DNA of 25,134 bases from a virus (lineage: Duplodnaviria > Heunggongvirae > Uroviricota > Caudoviricetes). Positions 4,966 to 17,777 of this stretch are shown here, one piece after another. The stretch covers positions 1 through 25,134 of the IMG/VR virus record IMGVR_UViG_2778261505_000007; one strand, written 5' to 3'. The first letter of the stretch is position 1. Each line of letters begins with the position of its first letter. The translations under genes and the position numbers were made by a program. The notes beneath the pieces were generated by a model. It had not been told where the DNA came from. It made no database searches and was given only the letters and a program-made list of their open reading frames with translations.

Positions 4966-4980
4966 TTACCGTTGAGGTAA
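4966..4980. promoter_or_regulatory. Operator-like palindrome OL1 (TTACC-GTTGA-GGTAA)
   Basis: Perfect 5+5 inverted repeat with 5-bp spacer, abutting the putative -10 of the leftward promoter. Confidence 0.6.
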
Positions 4981-5027: not shown

Positions 5028-5042
5028 TTACCTATTAGGTAA
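5028..5042. promoter_or_regulatory. Operator-like palindrome OL2 (TTACC-TATTA-GGTAA)
   Basis: Perfect inverted repeat 62 bp centre-to-centre from OL1, 20 bp upstream of the -35. Confidence 0.6.
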
Positions 5043-5739: not shown

Positions 5740-5754
5740 TTACCCAACAGGTAA
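5740..5754. promoter_or_regulatory. Operator-like palindrome OR-a (TTACC-CAACA-GGTAA)
   Basis: Perfect inverted repeat in the cI-cro intergenic region. Confidence 0.6.
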
Positions 5755-5784: not shown

Positions 5785-5813
5785 TTGTTACCTTATAGGT
5801 GAATATTTATTAT
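5785..5813 (+). promoter_or_regulatory. Putative rightward promoter for cro (P_R-like)
   Basis: -35 TTGTTA (5785-5790), 17-bp spacer, -10 TATTAT (5808-5813), about 25 bp upstream of the cro ATG. Confidence 0.45.
5788..5802. promoter_or_regulatory. Operator-like palindrome OR-b (TTACC-TTATA-GGTGA, one mismatch)
   Basis: Lies between the putative -35 and -10 of the rightward cro promoter. Confidence 0.5.
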
Positions 5814-6124: not shown

Positions 6125-6139
6125 GTACCTCAAAGGTAA
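6125..6139. promoter_or_regulatory. Operator-like palindrome (GTACC-TCAAA-GGTAA, one mismatch)
   Basis: Sits just past the cro terminator and upstream of the small Cys/His ORF. Confidence 0.45.
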
Positions 6140-8070: not shown

Positions 8071-8085
8071 TTACCTATCAGGTAA
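8071..8085. promoter_or_regulatory. Operator-like palindrome (TTACC-TATCA-GGTAA)
   Basis: Perfect site 20 bp upstream of a -35-like TTGATT. Confidence 0.55.
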
Positions 8086-8133: not shown

Positions 8134-8147
8134 TACCTCAGAGGTAA
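8133..8147. promoter_or_regulatory. Operator-like palindrome (TTACC-TCAGA-GGTAA)
   Basis: Perfect site abutting the -10 and overlapping the Shine-Dalgarno of the 8151 gene; 62 bp centre-to-centre from the 8071 site. Confidence 0.55.
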
Positions 8148-12117: not shown

Positions 12118-12166
12118 CATGTCACGAGTAGATTATGCATGATGAATTTGATGGGTTTTGAATACT

Positions 12167-12193
12167 GCCGCCAACTATGGCGGCTTTATTTTG
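12167..12193 (+). terminator. Rho-independent terminator upstream of the terminase genes
   Basis: Hairpin GCCGCC-AACTAT-GGCGGC followed by TTTATTTTG. Confidence 0.55.
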
Positions 12194-12203
12194 CATGGTA
12201 CTA

Positions 12204-12218
12204 TTACCACAACGGTAA
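12204..12218. promoter_or_regulatory. Operator-like palindrome (TTACC-ACAAC-GGTAA)
   Basis: Perfect site 18 bp upstream of the terminase small subunit ATG. Confidence 0.55.
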
Positions 12219-12221
12219 CAA

Positions 12222-12236
12222 TTACCAGGGTGGTTA
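12222..12236. promoter_or_regulatory. Operator-like palindrome (TTACC-AGGGT-GGTTA, one mismatch)
   Basis: Immediately adjacent second site, overlapping the terminase small subunit Shine-Dalgarno and start. Confidence 0.4.
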
Positions 12237-12832
12237 TGATGCCTGCTGAACCTAAAACCTATAAACGCAAATCAACGCAATTTAAGCCACTAACCGCAAT
12301 GCAGGAGGCTTATTGCCAGTCATACATCAAAACGCCTGAAAACCAGACTCAGGCAGCGATTAACGCAGGATTCTCCCCAAATACAGCGGCAGTTAAAGCC
12401 AGTGTCATGATGCGCGATGAACGCATTCAAAAACGGATTGCCGAGTTGATGGAGGAGCGCAACAAACGAATGCGCGTCAGTGCCGATTACGTTCTCATGC
12501 GCCTGGTGGAGATCGACCAGATGGACGTGATTGATATCCTCAACGACGATGGGAGCCTTAAGCCAATCCGCGAGTGGCCGAAAATCTGGCGCACTACGCT
12601 TAGTGGCTTTGATCTGTCATCGACCATCATGAACATGAACGAGGATTCGATAGAGACAATCCTCAAAAAAATTAAATGGCCTGACAAGGTGAAGAACCTC
12701 GAACTGATTGGTAAGCACGTCGACGTCAACGCATTCAAAGAACGCCTGGATGTTAATGTGAATGTGACAATTGCTGATCGCATAGCGGCAGCCAGGAAGC
12801 GACTCAAAGAACGTCAGGATGGTAATCAGTGA
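12236..12832 (+). CDS. Terminase small subunit
   Basis: Translation has the pattern typical of phage small terminases (LTAMQEAYCQSYIKTPENQTQAAINAGFSPNTAAVKASVMMRDERIQKRIAEL). True start is taken as ATG 12236/12239 because the ORF-track N-terminal extension runs through a terminator. Confidence 0.8.
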   Translation: MMPAEPKTYKRKSTQFKPLTAMQEAYCQSYIKTPENQTQAAINAGFSPNTAAVKASVMMRDERIQKRIAELMEERNKRMRVSADYVLMRLVEIDQMDVIDILNDDGSLKPIREWPKIWRTTLSGFDLSSTIMNMNEDSIETILKKIKWPDKVKNLELIGKHVDVNAFKERLDVNVNVTIADRIAAARKRLKERQDGNQ

Positions 12833-14298
12833 CAGATACAGCGTTATCTCCTGAAGAGCAGTTGATCGAGGATATTGCAGGGTTCACTCACGATCCGCTT
12901 GGCTATGCCCTCTATGCGTTCCCGTGGGGGGAAGAGGGGACTGAACTGGCACATGCTACCGGCCCACGTCAGTGGCAGGCTGATGCGTTCCGAGAGATAC
13001 GTGATCACCTGCAGAATCCAGAGACGCGCTATCAGCCGCTTATGCTGGCACGCGCTTCGGGTCACGGTATTGGTAAATCCGCATTCATCTCAATGCTGAT
13101 CAACTGGGGCATGTCCACTTGCGAGGATTGTAAGGTCGTGGTGACCGCCAACACCGACAACCAGCTACGAACGAAGACCTGGCCGGAAATTATCAAGTGG
13201 TCGAACCTTGCTATCACGAAAGACTGGTTTACCTGTACCGCTACCGCGATGTACAGCAATGACCCTGGGCACGACAAGCGGTGGCGAGCTGACGCAATCC
13301 CCTGGTCTGAGCACAACACTGAGGCATTCGCCGGACTACACAACGAGCGCAAACGCATCATCGTGGTATTCGACGAAGCATCCAACATTGCCGATCTGGT
13401 GTGGGAGGTAGCAGAGGGTGCGCTGACGGACGAAGACACTGAGATTATCTGGGTGGCATTCGGAAACCCTACACGTAACACCGGGCGTTTCCGCGAATGT
13501 TTCCGCAAATATAAACACCGCTGGAAAACTGCGCAGATTGACAGCCGGACGGTGGAAGGCACTAACAAACAGCAGTTGCAGAAATGGGTTGATGACTACG
13601 GGGAAGACAGCGACTTCGTTAAAATCCGTGTGCGCGGCATATTCCCTGATGCATCTGAATTGCAGTTTATCCCTACCGGTCTTACTGATGAGGCAATGAA
13701 ACGGGTGGTAACCGCTGCGCAGGTGGCGCATGCTCCGGTGATAATCGGTGTTGACCCGGCATATTCAGGCGTTGATGACGCGGTGATATACCTGCGGCAG
13801 GGGCTACACAGTAAGGTGCTGTGGACTGGCAACAAGACTACCGACGATCTGATTATGGCGAAGCGTATCGCTGACTTTGAAGACCAGTATCAGGCTGACG
13901 CGGTGTTCATCGACTTCGGTTACGGAACCGGTCTGAAGTCAATCGGTGACGGATGGGGTCGTACATGGCAACTTGTTCCGTTCGGTGGCGCGTCTACTGA
14001 CCCGCAGATGCTCAACAAGCGTGGGGAGATGTTCAATTCATGCAAGACATGGCTGAGGCTGGGCGGCATGCTGGATGACCAGGAAACAGCAGACGACCTG
14101 TCGGCGGCAGAGTACAAAGTTCGAGTGGACGGTAAAATCGTTATCGAACCGAAGGAAGATATCAAGGAGCGGCTTGGGCGTTCGCCGGGTAAAGGCGATG
14201 CGCTACTGCTGACGTTTGCGTTCCCGGTAGCCAAGAAAACTAATGACCCACGGCAGCAGCAGGGCAGGGCTATAACAGACTATGACCCATTTGAATGA
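12829..14298 (+). CDS. Terminase large subunit
   Basis: 489-aa protein with Walker A-like ATPase motif (ARASGHGIGKS), an acidic Walker B-like region (IIVVFDEAS) and a C-terminal nuclease-like region. GTG start overlaps the small subunit stop. Confidence 0.9.
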   Translation: MTDTALSPEEQLIEDIAGFTHDPLGYALYAFPWGEEGTELAHATGPRQWQADAFREIRDHLQNPETRYQPLMLARASGHGIGKSAFISMLINWGMSTCEDCKVVVTANTDNQLRTKTWPEIIKWSNLAITKDWFTCTATAMYSNDPGHDKRWRADAIPWSEHNTEAFAGLHNERKRIIVVFDEASNIADLVWEVAEGALTDEDTEIIWVAFGNPTRNTGRFRECFRKYKHRWKTAQIDSRTVEGTNKQQLQKWVDDYGEDSDFVKIRVRGIFPDASELQFIPTGLTDEAMKRVVTAAQVAHAPVIIGVDPAYSGVDDAVIYLRQGLHSKVLWTGNKTTDDLIMAKRIADFEDQYQADAVFIDFGYGTGLKSIGDGWGRTWQLVPFGGASTDPQMLNKRGEMFNSCKTWLRLGGMLDDQETADDLSAAEYKVRVDGKIVIEPKEDIKERLGRSPGKGDALLLTFAFPVAKKTNDPRQQQGRAITDYDPFE

Positions 14299-14301
14299 TT
14301 T

Positions 14302-15150
14302 TTACTTTTGTGTTTTTGATTTTCTTTGATGGGTGGAATTTAAACCACCATTTATATTTACTAGAGGATTATTCAATAATGTACTGATTTCTGGATTGTT
14401 AATTCCAGTAACGCCAAGTTTCTTTACGGACTCATTAAGGTCTTGTAATGATTTTAGACCTACAAACCCATTAGCAATTGTATTATTTGTTGCCAAAGGA
14501 ATGTTTTTCTTATAGGACTCATATTCGTTTTTTAAATTTTTGTGGGCTTTTTCTAGATTTTCTAGTTTAGATGTTGTTTCATGAATAACCTTAGATAATT
14601 CTAAAATACGAGCTTGTGCTGCGCGCAGTTCTGTCTCCCTCTCTTTCAATTCAGATGTGAGTTGTCCCATTCTGTCTTTTGAAAGAATTATTTCCTCTTT
14701 CATGTCTTGAATGTTTTTTTCAGCGCCTGTTTTTACTTTTTCGTAAGTAATGTCTTTTTTAGCCAGCAATCTCTGTAGCCGTGTTTCACGTTGTATTTTT
14801 CTTGCCTTCCGGTGATTTTCGATTGAGTCATTATTATCAAGAGGCTTTGCTTGCCATACGTTAATGATATTGTTTACCCATGGTAATAGGCAGCAGATAG
14901 TAATTACAGATAAGCATGGATAAAACATAACAGTTTTCCATGTGCTGTTATCTGAGATGTATGAAATTTTATCTATTATATTTGATTTGCTAAAAAATAG
15001 ATAAAGAAGTGATTTCCAGTTGAAGGCGCACCAGGACATAACAAAAGCACCTAGCACAGGGTTTTTAGCTCGATGCACGGCAGTATTGGCAGTAGATAAA
15101 AACAGCTCTTTGAACGATTCGAACATACTAATTACCTTAAAGTTTTTCAT
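14302..15150 (-). CDS. AT-rich gene: membrane-anchored coiled-coil protein of unknown function (about 282 aa)
   Basis: Opposite strand to all flanking late genes and visibly AT-rich. Two hydrophobic segments (PVLGAFVMSWCAFNWKSLLYLFF; TVMFYPCLSVITICCLLPWVNNIINVW) followed by a long charged heptad-like region. Preferred start ATG 15150 (AAGGT Shine-Dalgarno); the longer track ORF to 15222 would translate through a terminator hairpin. Confidence 0.6.
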   Translation of the reverse strand: MKNFKVISMFESFKELFLSTANTAVHRAKNPVLGAFVMSWCAFNWKSLLYLFFSKSNIIDKISYISDNSTWKTVMFYPCLSVITICCLLPWVNNIINVWQAKPLDNNDSIENHRKARKIQRETRLQRLLAKKDITYEKVKTGAEKNIQDMKEEIILSKDRMGQLTSELKERETELRAAQARILELSKVIHETTSKLENLEKAHKNLKNEYESYKKNIPLATNNTIANGFVGLKSLQDLNESVKKLGVTGINNPEISTLLNNPLVNINGGLNSTHQRKSKTQK

Positions 15151-15154
15151 GATT

Positions 15155-15169
15155 ATACCTTTAAGGTAA
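15155..15169. promoter_or_regulatory. Operator-like palindrome (ATACC-TTTAA-GGTAA, one mismatch)
   Basis: Overlaps the Shine-Dalgarno/promoter region of the AT-rich gene. A TTACC half-site also at 15132-15136. Confidence 0.4.
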
Positions 15170-15184
15170 TTTGTGGTCATCAGG

Positions 15185-15209
15185 CAAAAAAATGCCCGGC
15201 GAACCGGGC
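15185..15209 (-). terminator. Rho-independent terminator downstream of the tRNA
   Basis: On the minus strand, hairpin GCCCGG-TTCG-CCGGGC followed by ATTTTTTT. Confidence 0.55.
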
Positions 15210-15372
15210 GAACTGGAAGCAATGAGTTATGCCTTCCGTGGCTGTACGGGTTTACAGCATGAAGTCATCGCAATGGCGTCCTGCTGTAAAAAGGGCGGTG
15301 ATAGTCCTTCAAGGGAAACCATCACCGCCAAGCCCCTGGAACTTCTGGCATCACGGTCCTTAGGCGTGATTC

Positions 15373-15449
15373 TGGCGCGGCATGCAGGATTCGAACCTGC
15401 GACCAACCGCTTAGAAGGCGGTTGCTCTGTCCAACTGAGCTAATGCCAC
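15373..15449 (-). tRNA. tRNA-Arg (anticodon UCU)
   Basis: Minus-strand 77-nt sequence GTGGCATTAGCTCAGTTGGACAGAGCAACCGCCTTCTAAGCGGTTGGTCGCAGGTTCGAATCCTGCATGCCGCGCCA folds by hand into a cloverleaf: 7-bp acceptor stem, GTTCGAATCC T-arm, anticodon loop CTTCTAA, encoded CCA. Related to but distinct from the host argU sequence as I recall it. Confidence 0.9.
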
Positions 15450-15771
15450 AACGCTGAGAGCACTTAGCCTGTTAAGGCACCACACTTTGTCGCGGCTCCA
15501 TAAATGCTCTCATCGTTGCACCCTCGTCTCTTCCGAGGTGTCACACCGAATCGCCGGGATGGTGAATCCCCGTGCGCGGAATAAAACCGCTCGACTTGCA
15601 CATTCCGGCTACCTGGTTCGTTTGCCCGAGCAAGGGAGGGTGCCCCTTAAACGTATCCAGACCGCTATCGGCGCATGTGCCATACACCGTACTGCTCAAA
15701 ATAAAAGCTCACCCCACCTGTTCAATTTAACGACAAGCCAGTCAGGTTAATAACCGGAATGAACTCTTTGC

Positions 15772-15786
15772 TTACCTGAAAGGTAA
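15772..15786. promoter_or_regulatory. Operator-like palindrome (TTACC-TGAAA-GGTAA)
   Basis: Perfect site about 90 bp upstream of the first virion gene. Confidence 0.55.
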
Positions 15787-15876
15787 TAATTAGTGCGTTA
15801 AATGTCAAGTATCTACGATAAATAAATCACATGTGGTTAAATTGGTAATAATTTAATTGCGTACGGAGTCATTGAT

Positions 15877-16097: not shown

Positions 16098-17777
16098 ATG
16101 GCGGAAACAACTAAAGAGCGATTGAACAAACAGTTCGCACAACTTGAAAGCGAGCGTCAGTCGTTCGAGCCGCACTGGCGCGAGTTGAGTGATTACATCA
16201 ACCCGCGTGGTTCCCGCTTTCTGACTTCTGAGGTCAACCGTAACGATCGACGGAATACACGCATTATTGATTCGACCGGGACTATGGCGGCGCGCACTCT
16301 CGCCAGCGGCATGATGTCAGGCATCACAAGCCCCGCGCGTCCGTGGTTTCGCCTGGCTACGCCAGATCCTGAAATGATGGATTATGGCCCTGTTAAGTTG
16401 TGGCTTGAGGCGGTGCAGAACCGCATGAACGATATGTTCAATAAGTCGAATCTCTACCAGTCTCTTCCGCAGTTATACGGAAGCCTCGGCACATACAGCA
16501 CTGGTGCAATGGCGGTGCTGGAGGATGACGAGGACATCATTCGCACAATGCCATTCCCGATAGGCAGTTACTACCTGGCTAACTCACCTCGTGGCAGTGT
16601 GGACACCTGTTTTCGCAAGTTCTCTATGACTGTTCGTCAGCTTGTTCGGGAGTTCGGGCTAAATAACGTCAGCGAATCCGTAAAAAGCATGTGGGAAAGC
16701 GGCACCTACGAGAAGTGGATTGAAGTGATGCATTCGGTTTACCCGAACATTGACCGCGATACATCGAAGCTGGATAGCAAGAACAAGCCATTCAAATCGG
16801 TTTATTACGAGGTTGGTGGCGATAACGACAAGTTGTTGCGTGAGTCCGGATTCGATGAGTTTCCAATTATGGCTCCGCGCTGGGAAGTTAACGGCGAAGA
16901 TGTTTATGGATCATCATGCCCGGGTATGCTGGCGCTTGGACCTGTTAAGGCATTGCAGCTTCTCCAGAAGCGCAAGTCGCAGTTGATTGATAAAGCCACC
17001 AATCCGCCGATGGTTGCTCCGACTTCCCTCAAGAATCAGCGCGCCTCCCTTCTTCCTGGCGACATCACGTATATCGATCAGATTACTGGTCAGGATGGTT
17101 TCAGGCCTGCTTATCTGGTTAACCCCAGTACAGCAGATCTGGTAGCAGACATTCAGGACACCCGCCAAATCATTAACAGCGCCTACTTTGTCGATCTGTT
17201 CATGATGTTGCAGAACATCAATACCCGCTCGATGCCTGTTGAAGCGGTGATCGAAATGAAAGAAGAAAAACTTCTGATGTTGGGGCCGGTTCTGGAGCGT
17301 CTGAACGACGAATGTCTTAATCCTCTCATTGACCGCGCTTTCTCGATGATGGTGCGTAAAAACATGCTGCCGCCACCGCCTGACGCGATGGAAGGTATGC
17401 CCCTGAAGGTCGAATACATTTCTGTCATGGCTCAGGCGCAGAAGTCTATCGGCCTGTCCAGTCTGGCGTCCACGGTTAACTTCATTGGTCAACTTGCGCA
17501 AGCGAAACCAGAAGCTCTCGACAAACTCAACGTTGATCAGGCGATCGATGCATTCGCTGATATGTCCGGAGTGTCTCCAACCGTCATTGTTCCGCAGGAA
17601 CAGGTTGAGCAGGCTCGCCAGCAACGGGCACAGCAACAACAGCAGCAACAAATGATGGCGATGGGGATGGCGGCGGCACAGGGTGCCAAGACGCTAAGCG
17701 AAGCTAAAACTTCGGATCCGAGTGTTTTGTCAGCTATGGCGAATGCAGTTAGTGGTCAGGGTGGGCAATCACAATGA
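16098..17777 (+). CDS. Portal (head-to-tail connector) protein, T7 gp8-like
   Basis: 559-aa protein. The C-terminal Gln/Ala/Met-rich tail (QQQQQQQMMAMGMAAAQGAKT) mirrors the T7 gp8 C-terminus, and size and position match. Confidence 0.85.
   Translation: MAETTKERLNKQFAQLESERQSFEPHWRELSDYINPRGSRFLTSEVNRNDRRNTRIIDSTGTMAARTLASGMMSGITSPARPWFRLATPDPEMMDYGPVKLWLEAVQNRMNDMFNKSNLYQSLPQLYGSLGTYSTGAMAVLEDDEDIIRTMPFPIGSYYLANSPRGSVDTCFRKFSMTVRQLVREFGLNNVSESVKSMWESGTYEKWIEVMHSVYPNIDRDTSKLDSKNKPFKSVYYEVGGDNDKLLRESGFDEFPIMAPRWEVNGEDVYGSSCPGMLALGPVKALQLLQKRKSQLIDKATNPPMVAPTSLKNQRASLLPGDITYIDQITGQDGFRPAYLVNPSTADLVADIQDTRQIINSAYFVDLFMMLQNINTRSMPVEAVIEMKEEKLLMLGPVLERLNDECLNPLIDRAFSMMVRKNMLPPPPDAMEGMPLKVEYISVMAQAQKSIGLSSLASTVNFIGQLAQAKPEALDKLNVDQAIDAFADMSGVSPTVIVPQEQVEQARQQRAQQQQQQQMMAMGMAAAQGAKTLSEAKTSDPSVLSAMANAVSGQGGQSQ

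What the first reader, a model, noticed from the sequence alone, without database searches (positions are those of the whole stretch)
14302..15209. AT-rich, opposite-strand gene for a membrane-anchored coiled-coil protein inserted between terminase and portal
The gene at 14302-15150 is on the minus strand while all flanking morphogenetic genes are on the plus strand, and it is visibly much more AT-rich than its neighbours. That combination suggests a separately acquired accessory gene. Its product has two predicted transmembrane helices followed by a roughly 100-residue charged heptad-like region, with no family I can assign by eye. It has its own putative Shine-Dalgarno and promoter region overlapping an operator-like palindrome, and is insulated upstream by a terminator. 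Membrane plus coiled-coil single-gene cargo in a prophage is a common architecture for superinfection exclusion or abortive infection; that functional guess is inference only.
Basis: partly seen in the sequence, partly recalled or inferred. Interest (0 to 1): 0.8.

Follow-up and report, generated by a model that had tools for sequence, protein, structure and literature searches.

The report
Uncharacterised membrane coiled-coil phage cargo gene
A real, AT-rich, backwards-facing accessory gene in a swappable slot of an epsilon15/phiV10-like E. coli prophage encodes an inner-membrane coiled-coil protein of a widespread but unstudied phage family, which is probably a phage-versus-phage conflict protein and has a promoter carrying the phage's own operator sequence.

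Summary
The region has GC 0.34 against 0.50±0.02 elsewhere (z −6.4) and GC3 0.30 against 0.48–0.61. It is a minus-strand ORF among plus-strand morphogenesis genes. The product has two hydrophobic segments followed by a heptad-periodic helix.

Three corrections apply:
- The true start is ATG 15126 (274 aa), not 15150.
- The right-hand neighbour is a tRNA-Arg(UCU) gene, not portal.
- The gene is one of at least 9 unrelated minus-strand cassettes that alternate in this TerL–tRNA slot (12 of 77 close relatives; 2 slots empty).

The protein belongs to a large family with no assigned function (PHROG 4780/13369/35327; 313 cluster representatives at E≤1e-10). It has no Pfam, PADLOC, PDB or fold match. 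Residues 1–160 are strongly conserved and 161–274 are hypervariable.

Distant members occur alone in the P2 old/tin defence hotspot, beside a TIR gene near a CI-like repressor, and in a lambdoid nin region.

The promoter contains a TTACC-N5-GGTAA palindrome. The same palindrome marks the phage's own promoters around its repressor gene.

Best reading: a single-gene, membrane-anchored exclusion or abortive-infection-like protein wired into the phage's regulatory circuit. The function is inferred, not shown.

The parts
14302..15126 (-). Coding sequence, 274 aa plus stop, with the corrected start. The product is an inner-membrane 2-TM plus coiled-coil protein of an uncharacterised family (PHROG 4780).
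   Evidence: ORF list and translation. Family alignments start at this Met. phrog_4780 E = 7e-122. Among close alleles, codons 1-160 show 10-12 synonymous against 1 nonsynonymous polymorphic codons.
15127..15150 (-). Probably not translated.
   Evidence: It is absent from most homologues. ATG 15150 lies 1 nt after the -10 box, upstream of the expected transcription start. RefSeq annotates 282 aa.
14989..15057 (-). Hydrophobic segment 1 (residues 24-46). It contains the family signature SW-AFNWK.
   Evidence: Family-averaged hydropathy. Invariant residues G26, F28, S31, A34, F35, N36, W37, K38.
14863..14931 (-). Hydrophobic segment 2 (residues 66-88), the strong transmembrane helix, with conserved P70 and P82-W83.
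   Evidence: KD 19-residue mean up to 2.0. Family profile. Conserved columns.
14647..14862 (-). Conserved, positively charged juxtamembrane helices (residues 89-160).
   Evidence: Invariant P95, D97, D100, S101, I102, N104, K107, T115, R116, L117, R119, L120 and others. Family net charge +2.5.
14305..14646 (-). Hypervariable C-terminal coiled coil and low-confidence tail (residues 161-274).
   Evidence: Median identity to homologues is 41% in the coiled coil and 9% in the tail. Among close alleles there are 12 nonsynonymous against 1 synonymous polymorphic codons. pLDDT is below 50 from residue 211.
15134..15138 (-). Shine-Dalgarno AAGGT, 7 nt upstream of ATG 15126.
   Evidence: Read from the sequence.
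15152..15180 (-). Sigma-70-type promoter: -35 ATGACC (15180-15175), 17-nt spacer, -10 TATAAT (15157-15152).
   Evidence: Consensus scan, 10 of 12 matches. The same architecture is kept in the alleles of Enterobacteriaceae Uetakevirus-type loci, down to about 45% protein identity, but not in the 30%-identity member L160.
15155..15170 (.). Operator-like palindrome ATACCTTTAAGGTAAT (core TACC-N5-GGTA), lying in the promoter spacer and -10 box.
   Evidence: The motif is found 9 times in the window against 0.34 in shuffles. The other copies lie around the repressor/cro genes and other promoters. phiV10 has 10 sites and BUCT711 has 12. It is kept in most alleles at about -43 from the ATG.
15127..15174 (-). 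Extended 16-nt inverted repeat (15127-15142 / 15159-15174) that would pair the Shine-Dalgarno sequence in RNA reading through from upstream. It is specific to this allele group.
   Evidence: the repeat finder I1, 94% complementary. The fold has z = -4.7. It is absent from other alleles.
15186..15209 (-). Intrinsic terminator (stem 15209-15194 plus T-run) that closes the upstream tRNA unit and insulates the cassette.
   Evidence: Terminator scan. The sequence is shared with phiV10, where the alternative cassette's Shine-Dalgarno sequence follows it directly.
15373..15449 (-). tRNA-Arg (anticodon UCU). It is the conserved right-hand border of the slot.
   Evidence: ARAGORN. Rfam tRNA, 69 bits. 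The flank is 99% identical to phiV10.
15773..15808 (-). Leftward promoter candidate (TTGACA 15808-15803) with another operator palindrome (15773-15785), upstream of the tRNA. It overlaps a rightward promoter candidate facing portal.
   Evidence: Sequence reading. Motif search.

Best explanation
The feature is a self-contained accessory cassette: an own promoter plus one gene. It occupies the hypervariable slot between the large terminase gene and a tRNA-Arg gene of an epsilon15/phiV10-like (Uetakevirus) prophage of E. coli.

It encodes a 274-aa inner-membrane protein of a large, unstudied, mostly phage-borne family. The N-terminus and C-terminus are predicted to be cytoplasmic. A conserved two-helix membrane hairpin and a conserved basic juxtamembrane helix are followed by a long coiled coil and a tail, both of which vary freely between alleles.

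My best reading is that it is a single-gene phage-conflict protein of the exclusion or abortive-infection type. In this reading the conserved membrane module is the anchor or effector, acting by membrane perturbation or by blocking genome entry. The variable cytoplasmic coiled coil and tail set which competitor or trigger is recognised.

The promoter carries the same TTACC-N5-GGTAA operator as the phage's own early promoters. Expression is therefore probably tied to the phage's repressor/Cro circuit, possibly switched on at infection or induction, rather than constitutive in the lysogen.

Shown here: the anatomy, cassette behaviour, family breadth, conservation pattern and operator sharing. 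Inferred: topology, function, effector/sensor roles and regulation.
For: - Cassette behaviour. Of 77 relatives with >=94% identical TerL, the slot is 135-997 bp and holds at least 9 unrelated minus-strand genes. This family holds 12 slots and 2 are empty.
- Own promoter. It is conserved with the gene across alleles. phiV10's alternative cassette has no promoter.
- Real gene under selection. Codons 1-160 have 10-12 synonymous against 1 nonsynonymous polymorphic codons; codons 161-274 have 1 against 12. Fisher p is about 8e-5.
- Family breadth. The profile finds 1776 cluster representatives at E<=1e-3 and 313 at E<=1e-10.
- Conflict-type contexts. P0198 lies between gpA and portal of a P2-like prophage; that position is the old/tin defence hotspot (papers read). 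P0246 lies downstream of an S24 CI-like repressor, next to a TIR_2 protein. KO-TP1 carries a copy in a lambdoid nin region on the opposite strand. P0156 is a lone opposite-strand gene in a phage or phage-plasmid.
- No conserved partner gene appears in any context.
- Composition. The gene is 6-19 GC points below its flanks in 11 of 11 contexts.
- Topology. Family net charge is +1.0 at the N-terminus, -0.8 in the loop and +2.5 after TM2. One member ends in a GerE/LuxR DNA-binding domain, which must be cytoplasmic.
- Operator. TACC-N5-GGTA occurs 9 times in the window against 0.34 in shuffles. Copies flank promoters beside the repressor gene in pairs 62 bp apart. The motif is present in phiV10 and in a Klebsiella relative. 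It has decayed in the lambdoid copy.
Against: - The same slot holds a Tad2-like anti-defence gene in one relative, so the slot is not defence-specific.
- An operator over the -10 box argues against the constitutive lysogenic expression that a classical prophage defence gene needs.
- The C-terminal pattern (12 nonsynonymous to 1 synonymous) is not significantly above the neutral expectation of about 3:1. It may reflect relaxed constraint on a coiled coil, or recombination, rather than an arms race.
- Hydrophobic segment 1 is only moderately hydrophobic and contains an invariant Lys, so the two-pass topology is not certain.
- The monomer AlphaFold model is poor (pTM 0.26).
Confidence: 0.45

Rival explanations
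1. It is a counter-defence or host-takeover gene used by the phage itself early in lytic growth. The protein would tether or inactivate a host immune or envelope component at the inner membrane, and its variable tail would track variable host targets.
For: - The promoter carries the operator shared with the early promoters and, in phiV10, with the integrase upstream region. This fits expression on infection or induction.
- The same slot carries a Tad2-like anti-Thoeris domain protein in a relative (PF11195, E = 3e-24).
- The neighbouring tRNA-Arg(UCU) unit is plausibly useful in lytic growth (inference).
Against: - To my knowledge, known anti-defence proteins are mostly small and soluble, and none has this architecture.
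- Distant members sit in the P2 old/tin locus, which the papers read here describe as a reservoir of defence cargo.
- One family member lies in a chromosomal context with no phage genes nearby.
Confidence: 0.2
2. It is a classical lysogenic-conversion moron, expressed constitutively from the prophage, that blocks DNA entry of superinfecting phages at the inner membrane. This would be pure superinfection exclusion of the T4 Imm, P22 SieA or HK97 gp15 type, with no killing of the host.
For: - Opposite orientation to the late operon, a near-consensus own promoter, AT-richness and an inner-membrane location.
- A single operator may give only weak repression (inference).
Against: - The variable part is predicted to be cytoplasmic. 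That is not where an entry blocker would meet an incoming phage's ejection proteins.
- The operator overlaps the -10 box.
- There is no similarity to SieB (hhalign probability 1.3%). Imm, SieA and gp15 were not compared.
Confidence: 0.2
3. It is a membrane scaffold with a housekeeping role for the phage, such as timing of lysis, cell-division inhibition or assembly at the membrane, and not a conflict gene. The C-terminal variability would simply reflect weak constraint on coiled-coil sequence.
For: - The only sequence and fold matches are generic coiled coils.
- The nonsynonymous-to-synonymous ratio in the tail is compatible with neutrality.
Against: - The gene is dispensable and interchangeable with unrelated genes, or with nothing, in close relatives.
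- It is not in the lysis cassette of phiV10-type genomes.
- It moves between unrelated phage backbones as a lone gene.
Confidence: 0.1

Closest known systems
Lambda/P22 SieB (Pfam PF14163), an abortive-infection-type exclusion protein
   Same: A single gene on the opposite strand inside a phage operon, convergent with its neighbour (lambda sieB 34482-35036 against N). A small protein with hydrophobic N-terminal segments followed by a soluble part.
   Different: No detectable homology: no Pfam hit at E<=1 and hhalign probability 1.3%. SieB has no long coiled coil. Its genomic position differs (early-left operon against the packaging region).
Cargo of the P2 old/tin hotspot (Rousset et al. 2022, PMC9122126)
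   Same: A distant family member (P0198, E = 1e-19 to the family profile) occupies exactly that locus, between gpA and portal. Both are hypervariable single slots flanked by conserved phage genes, holding AT-rich cargo.
   Different: The window's slot is a different one (TerL-tRNA-Arg of Uetakevirus). No PADLOC v2 model, including the Rousset systems, matches the protein. This slot also carries an anti-defence gene.
Two-TM membrane effectors of abortive-infection systems (SLATT domains, CBASS 2-TM effectors, RexB-type). This comparison rests on my own knowledge.
   Same: A membrane hairpin followed by cytoplasmic helices. Proposed to act on membrane integrity when triggered.
   Different: No Pfam SLATT or other effector family hit at E<=1. 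Those effectors depend on a partner sensor or signal-generating enzyme, whereas this protein has no conserved partner gene.
Genome-wide repressor operator networks: P1 C1 operators and mycobacteriophage L5 stoperators. This comparison rests on my own knowledge.
   Same: One short operator motif is repeated at about ten intergenic sites across the phage genome, including in front of accessory genes.
   Different: Here the motif is a symmetric TTACC-N5-GGTAA palindrome, often in pairs 62 bp apart flanking a promoter. The binding protein has not been identified. Nothing on it was found in the library.

Membership tests
Moron (independent accessory transcription unit in a phage genome; Hendrix-type definition, PMC3594210) | It sits between genes that are adjacent, or separated by different cargo, in related phages. 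| tested here: met
   In 77 close relatives the slot is 135-997 bp, with at least 9 unrelated cassettes and 2 empty slots. phiV10 carries a different gene there.
Moron (independent accessory transcription unit in a phage genome; Hendrix-type definition, PMC3594210) | It has its own promoter. | tested here: met
   ATGACC-17-TATAAT, 10 of 12 matches. The promoter is conserved with the gene across alleles. This is computational only; no transcript data were available.
Moron (independent accessory transcription unit in a phage genome; Hendrix-type definition, PMC3594210) | It has its own terminator. | tested here: not met
   The stop codon is 3 bp from the convergent TerL stop codon, and no minus-strand terminator lies downstream of 14302.
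Moron (independent accessory transcription unit in a phage genome; Hendrix-type definition, PMC3594210) | Its base composition differs from that of the host phage. | tested here: met
   GC 0.342 against 0.498, z = -6.4; GC3 0.30. The same holds in 11 of 11 other contexts.
Moron (independent accessory transcription unit in a phage genome; Hendrix-type definition, PMC3594210) | It is expressed from the repressed prophage. | not testable with these tools
   No expression data were available. The operator over the -10 box suggests it may instead be repressed in lysogeny.
SieB superinfection exclusion (PF14163) | Sequence or profile similarity to SieB. | tested here: not met
   No Pfam hit at E<=1. 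hhalign of the family profile against lambda SieB gives probability 1.3%.
Known anti-phage defence families (PADLOC-DB v2.0) | A match to a defence-protein model outside the coiled-coil region. | tested here: not met
   Only LmuB, JetC, DruC and PD-Lambda-1 hits, all confined to residues ~105-245 (coiled coil), E >= 7.6e-5. The same holds for 135 family members. Databases newer than 2023 were not available.
SLATT / 2-TM conflict-system effectors (Pfam SLATT_1-6) | A match to a SLATT profile. | tested here: not met
   No SLATT family among Pfam hits at E<=1 for the protein, nor at E<=1e-3 for 135 members. A profile-profile search against Pfam could not be run.
Inner-membrane spanin (Rz-type) | It is encoded in the lysis cassette with an outer-membrane lipoprotein partner, and has one N-terminal TM with a periplasmic coiled coil. 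| tested here: not met
   The phiV10-type lysis cassette with Rz/Rz1 lies elsewhere in the genome. This protein has two hydrophobic segments, and the charge distribution and the GerE-fused member place the coiled coil in the cytoplasm.
PHROG 4780 / 13369 / 35327 (phage protein families, unknown function) | A full-length profile match. | tested here: met
   phrog_4780 E = 7e-122 over residues 1-273. All 135 diverse members match 4780 and 13369.

The most novel reading that the evidence does not exclude
This is the founding example of a new, widespread family of single-gene, membrane-anchored anti-phage proteins. A conserved two-TM module is triggered through a hypervariable cytoplasmic coiled-coil sensor. 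In Uetakevirus prophages the gene is placed under the prophage's own operator, so that it fires only when repression is lost. That would make it either a lytic-phase exclusion device or a guard on the immunity repressor that responds to a competitor's anti-repressor.
Probability: 0.2. Interest if true: 0.8.

Novelty: new variant of a known kind. Interest (0 to 1): 0.55.

Why it matters
If the family does act in phage conflict, it would add a common cargo gene to the list of phage-borne immunity genes: 313 cluster representatives at E<=1e-10, found in several phage backbones and in the P2 old/tin hotspot. It matches no Pfam or PADLOC v2 model. Its layout, a constant membrane module joined to a swappable cytoplasmic tail, gives a simple system for asking how specificity is encoded.

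Separately, the TerL–tRNA-Arg slot of epsilon15/phiV10-like prophages looks like an unreported hotspot that mixes candidate defence and anti-defence cargo. These prophages were found in about 10% of complete E. coli genomes here. The TTACC-N5-GGTAA operator network offers a direct handle on how such cargo is wired into a prophage's own switch.

Tried and rejected
- Pfam, NCBIfam and PADLOC scans of the protein and of 135 diverse relatives gave only coiled-coil noise: ATG16, SMC, LmuB, JetC and tape-measure models.
- A profile search of PDB sequences gave only myosin- and SMC-type coiled coils.
- Lambda SieB was rejected as a relative.
- A second homologue search with the diverse alignment returned only close relatives and added nothing.
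- The idea that the 16-nt extended inverted repeat is a general feature of the family was rejected. It is confined to this allele group.
- The idea that the promoter and palindrome belong to the phage backbone was rejected. phiV10-type and empty slots lack them.
- A claim of positive selection on the tail was downgraded. The 12:1 ratio is not significantly above neutral, and the synonymous changes cluster in codons 2-43, which suggests a recombination patch.
- Literature searches found nothing on the family or on the operator: PHROG ids, phiV10/epsilon15 operators, prophage coiled-coil/transmembrane defence, and the DefensePredictor text and supplements by accession and by peptide. Brenes & Laub 2025 is not held.
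- Rfam found only the tRNA.
Full report
**What the window is.** The window is an epsilon15/phiV10-like (Uetakevirus) prophage of E. coli. The region 13900-15500 is 100% identical to strain GPEC1186, and flank matches occur in 521 of 5426 complete E. coli genomes. The right flank, from 15186 onward, is 99% identical to phage phiV10. The gene order is TerS 12158-12832, TerL 12829-14298, the minus-strand ORF, a minus-strand tRNA-Arg(UCU) at 15373-15449, a small ORF, then portal at 16098-17777.

**Checking the observation.**
- Composition. The AT-richness is real and sharply bounded. GC is 0.342, against 0.498 ± 0.024 for all other windows of the same size (minimum 0.424; z = -6.4). GC3 is 0.30, against 0.48-0.61 in the flanking genes.
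- Protein. There is one strongly hydrophobic segment and one moderately hydrophobic segment, followed by a region with a clear 3.5-residue periodicity. AlphaFold models that region as a single 75-residue helix with pLDDT > 90.
- Regulatory signals. The upstream terminator (15194-15209), the promoter-like site (ATGACC-17-TATAAT) and the palindrome are all present.
- Correction 1. Homologues start at the second Met, and the -10 box ends one base before ATG 15150. The likely start is therefore ATG 15126, preceded by AAGGT. RefSeq uses the longer form.
- Correction 2.
- Correction 3. The gene has no terminator of its own. Its stop codon is 3 bp from the TerL stop codon.

**It is a cassette in a hypervariable slot.**
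- phiV10 has a different minus-strand gene at the same place, a 123-aa member of the N4 gp49/Sf6 gp66 family.
- I surveyed 77 IMG/VR contigs whose TerL C-terminus is >=94% identical. The slot between the TerL stop and the tRNA-side terminator ranges from 135 to 997 bp.
- It holds at least nine unrelated cassettes, almost all on the minus strand: gp49/66-like (32), an unknown 123-140-aa protein (17), this family (12), a repeat protein (5), a 110-aa protein (4) and several singletons. One singleton has a Tad2-like anti-Thoeris domain (PF11195, E = 3e-24). Two slots are empty.
- TerL and portal are therefore never directly adjacent, but the cargo between TerL and the tRNA is freely exchangeable.
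- The phiV10-type cassettes have no promoter. Their Shine-Dalgarno sequence follows the terminator's T-run directly. The family studied here brings its own promoter.

**The family.**
- The protein matches phrog_4780 (E = 7e-122), and also phrog_13369 and phrog_35327, all of unknown function.
- A profile search of 1.84 billion cluster representatives finds 1776 proteins at E<=1e-3 and 313 at E<=1e-10.
- No Pfam, NCBIfam or PADLOC model matches the protein or 135 diverse relatives outside the coiled coil.
- Within Enterobacteriaceae, residues 1-160 carry 49 invariant positions (for example N22, P23, G26, A34, F35, N36, W37, K38, P82, W83, P95, D97, T115, R116, L117). The rest is barely alignable.
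- Across the whole family, R19, P23, W32, N36, W37, P70 and P82 stay nearly invariant.

**Topology.** Family-averaged net charge is +1.0 before the first hydrophobic segment, -0.8 in the 17-residue loop and +2.5 after the second. One member (P0202) ends in a GerE/LuxR DNA-binding domain scoring above Pfam's cut-off. Both lines place the coiled coil and tail in the cytoplasm. This is an inference. Segment 1 is only moderately hydrophobic and contains an invariant Lys.

**Selection.** I compared 12-13 alleles that are 90-100% identical.
- Codons 1-160 show 10-12 synonymous but only 1 nonsynonymous polymorphic codon.
- Codons 161-274 show 1 synonymous and 12 nonsynonymous, or 15 and 34 when a diverged recombinant allele is included. 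Fisher p is about 8e-5.
- This proves strong constraint on the membrane module and a very different regime in the tail.
- It does not prove positive selection, because 12:1 is not significantly above the neutral ratio of about 3:1. The synonymous changes cluster in codons 2-43, which looks like a recombination patch.

**Where relatives live.**
- 60 of 68 IMG/VR loci that encode the family show full-length TerS, TerL and portal matches in the same TerL-convergent arrangement. So does a homologue with only 30% identity. The association with this phage lineage is therefore old, not a one-off insertion.
- Other members sit, always alone, in four further settings:
  - a lambdoid nin region, on the opposite strand;
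  - between gpA and portal of a P2/186-like prophage, which is the old/tin defence hotspot;
  - downstream of an S24 CI-like repressor, beside a TIR_2 protein;
  - as a lone opposite-strand gene beside parA in a phage or phage-plasmid.
- One member is chromosomal, with no phage genes nearby.
- In 11 of 11 contexts the gene is 6-19 GC points below its flanks.

**The palindrome is the phage's own operator motif.**
- TACC-N5-GGTA occurs 9 times in the window, against 0.34 in shuffles (maximum 2).
- Two sites 62 bp apart flank a leftward TTGACA promoter just past the repressor gene. Two lie between the repressor and the cro-like gene. One follows the cro terminator. Two, again 62 bp apart, flank a rightward promoter at about 8100. 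One overlaps divergent promoter candidates upstream of the tRNA and of portal. One is in this gene's promoter.
- phiV10 has 10 such sites and a Klebsiella relative has 12, at equivalent places. One phiV10 site, upstream of the integrase gene, has a core identical to this gene's operator.
- Most Uetakevirus-borne alleles keep the palindrome about 43 nt before the ATG. The lambdoid copy has lost one half-site while keeping its -35 and -10 boxes.
- I found no description of this operator in the library. Which protein binds it was not tested. The 194-aa HTH_3 repressor and the Cro-like protein are the obvious candidates.
- Because the site overlaps the spacer and the -10 box, binding should repress the promoter.
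- In this allele group only, a longer 16-nt inverted repeat would additionally pair the Shine-Dalgarno sequence in any RNA reading through from the tRNA unit.

**Interpretation.** The anatomy is secure. It comprises one promoter, one gene, a membrane hairpin, a conserved basic helix and a variable cytoplasmic coiled coil. It behaves as a cassette in a hypervariable slot. It belongs to a wide family with no assigned function.

The function is inferred. I favour a single-gene conflict protein of the exclusion or abortive-infection type, for four reasons:
- its residence in established defence hotspots;
- its constant-module plus variable-tail design;
- its membrane location;
- its mobility as a lone gene.

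The operator and the Tad2-like neighbour cargo keep two alternatives alive: an early-lytic counter-defence or takeover role, or exclusion that acts during lytic growth rather than in the lysogen. Only expression and phenotype experiments can decide.

**Verdict.** This is a genuine and well-delimited accessory gene of an unstudied family. It is a good experimental lead rather than a surprise. The operator link is the most useful new point.

Noticed in passing
window 4967-4979, 5029-5041, 5741-5753, 5789-5801, 6126-6138, 8072-8084, 8134-8146, 12205-12217, 15156-15168, 15773-15785: A genome-wide operator-like palindrome, TTACC-N5-GGTAA, sits at intergenic promoters. Two pairs are exactly 62 bp apart and each pair flanks a promoter. 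phiV10 has 10 such sites and Klebsiella phage BUCT711 has 12. I found no description of it in the papers I could search.
   Followed up: partly
It is followed by two hairpins (15329-15294, 15209-15194). It is preceded by a conserved GC-rich leader of about 320 nt (15450-15770) that has no Rfam match.
   Followed up: partly
L146 slot (IMGVR_UViG_3300045988_053144), equivalent to window 14299-15185: In a close relative the same slot holds a 98-aa protein with a Tad2-like anti-Thoeris domain (PF11195, E = 3e-24). The commonest cargo is the N4 gp49/Sf6 gp66 family (PF13876). The slot therefore mixes candidate defence and anti-defence genes.
   Followed up: partly
window 15127-15174: A 16-nt inverted repeat encloses the -10 box and pairs the Shine-Dalgarno sequence. 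Read-through RNA from the tRNA unit would be translationally masked, while RNA from the gene's own promoter would not. It is found only in this allele group.
   Followed up: partly
window 15127-15150; RefSeq WP_021549674.1, WP_000787771.1 and others: Public annotation uses the upstream ATG (282 aa). The family alignment and the promoter geometry indicate the 274-aa form.
   Followed up: yes
L159 (phiV10) 26871-26883: The region upstream of the phiV10 integrase gene carries an operator whose 13-bp core (TACCTTAAAGGTA) is identical to the one in this gene's promoter. The equivalent site would lie just outside the left end of the window.
   Followed up: no
P0202 (family member, 238 aa): One family member replaces the variable tail with a GerE/LuxR helix-turn-helix domain (PF00196, 39.6 bits). 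That makes it a membrane-tethered DNA-binding protein.
   Followed up: partly
L165 1-1355 and L167 7251-8084: Other immune-type cargo lies near distant family members. A NACHT protein sits next to the CI-like repressor of the P2-like prophage, and a TIR_2 protein sits two genes downstream in the lambdoid element.
   Followed up: no
window 14302-15126, codons 2-43: Eight of the ten synonymous polymorphisms among close alleles fall in the first 43 codons, and almost none fall in the C-terminal third. This suggests a recombination patch at the 5' end.
   Followed up: no
L089 slot (IMGVR_UViG_2558860467_000003): An unrelated 60-aa cassette in the same slot also has a promoter carrying the TACC-N5-GGTA palindrome (TACCTAAGGGGTA, followed by TATTAT). 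Operator-bearing promoters are therefore not unique to this family.
   Followed up: no
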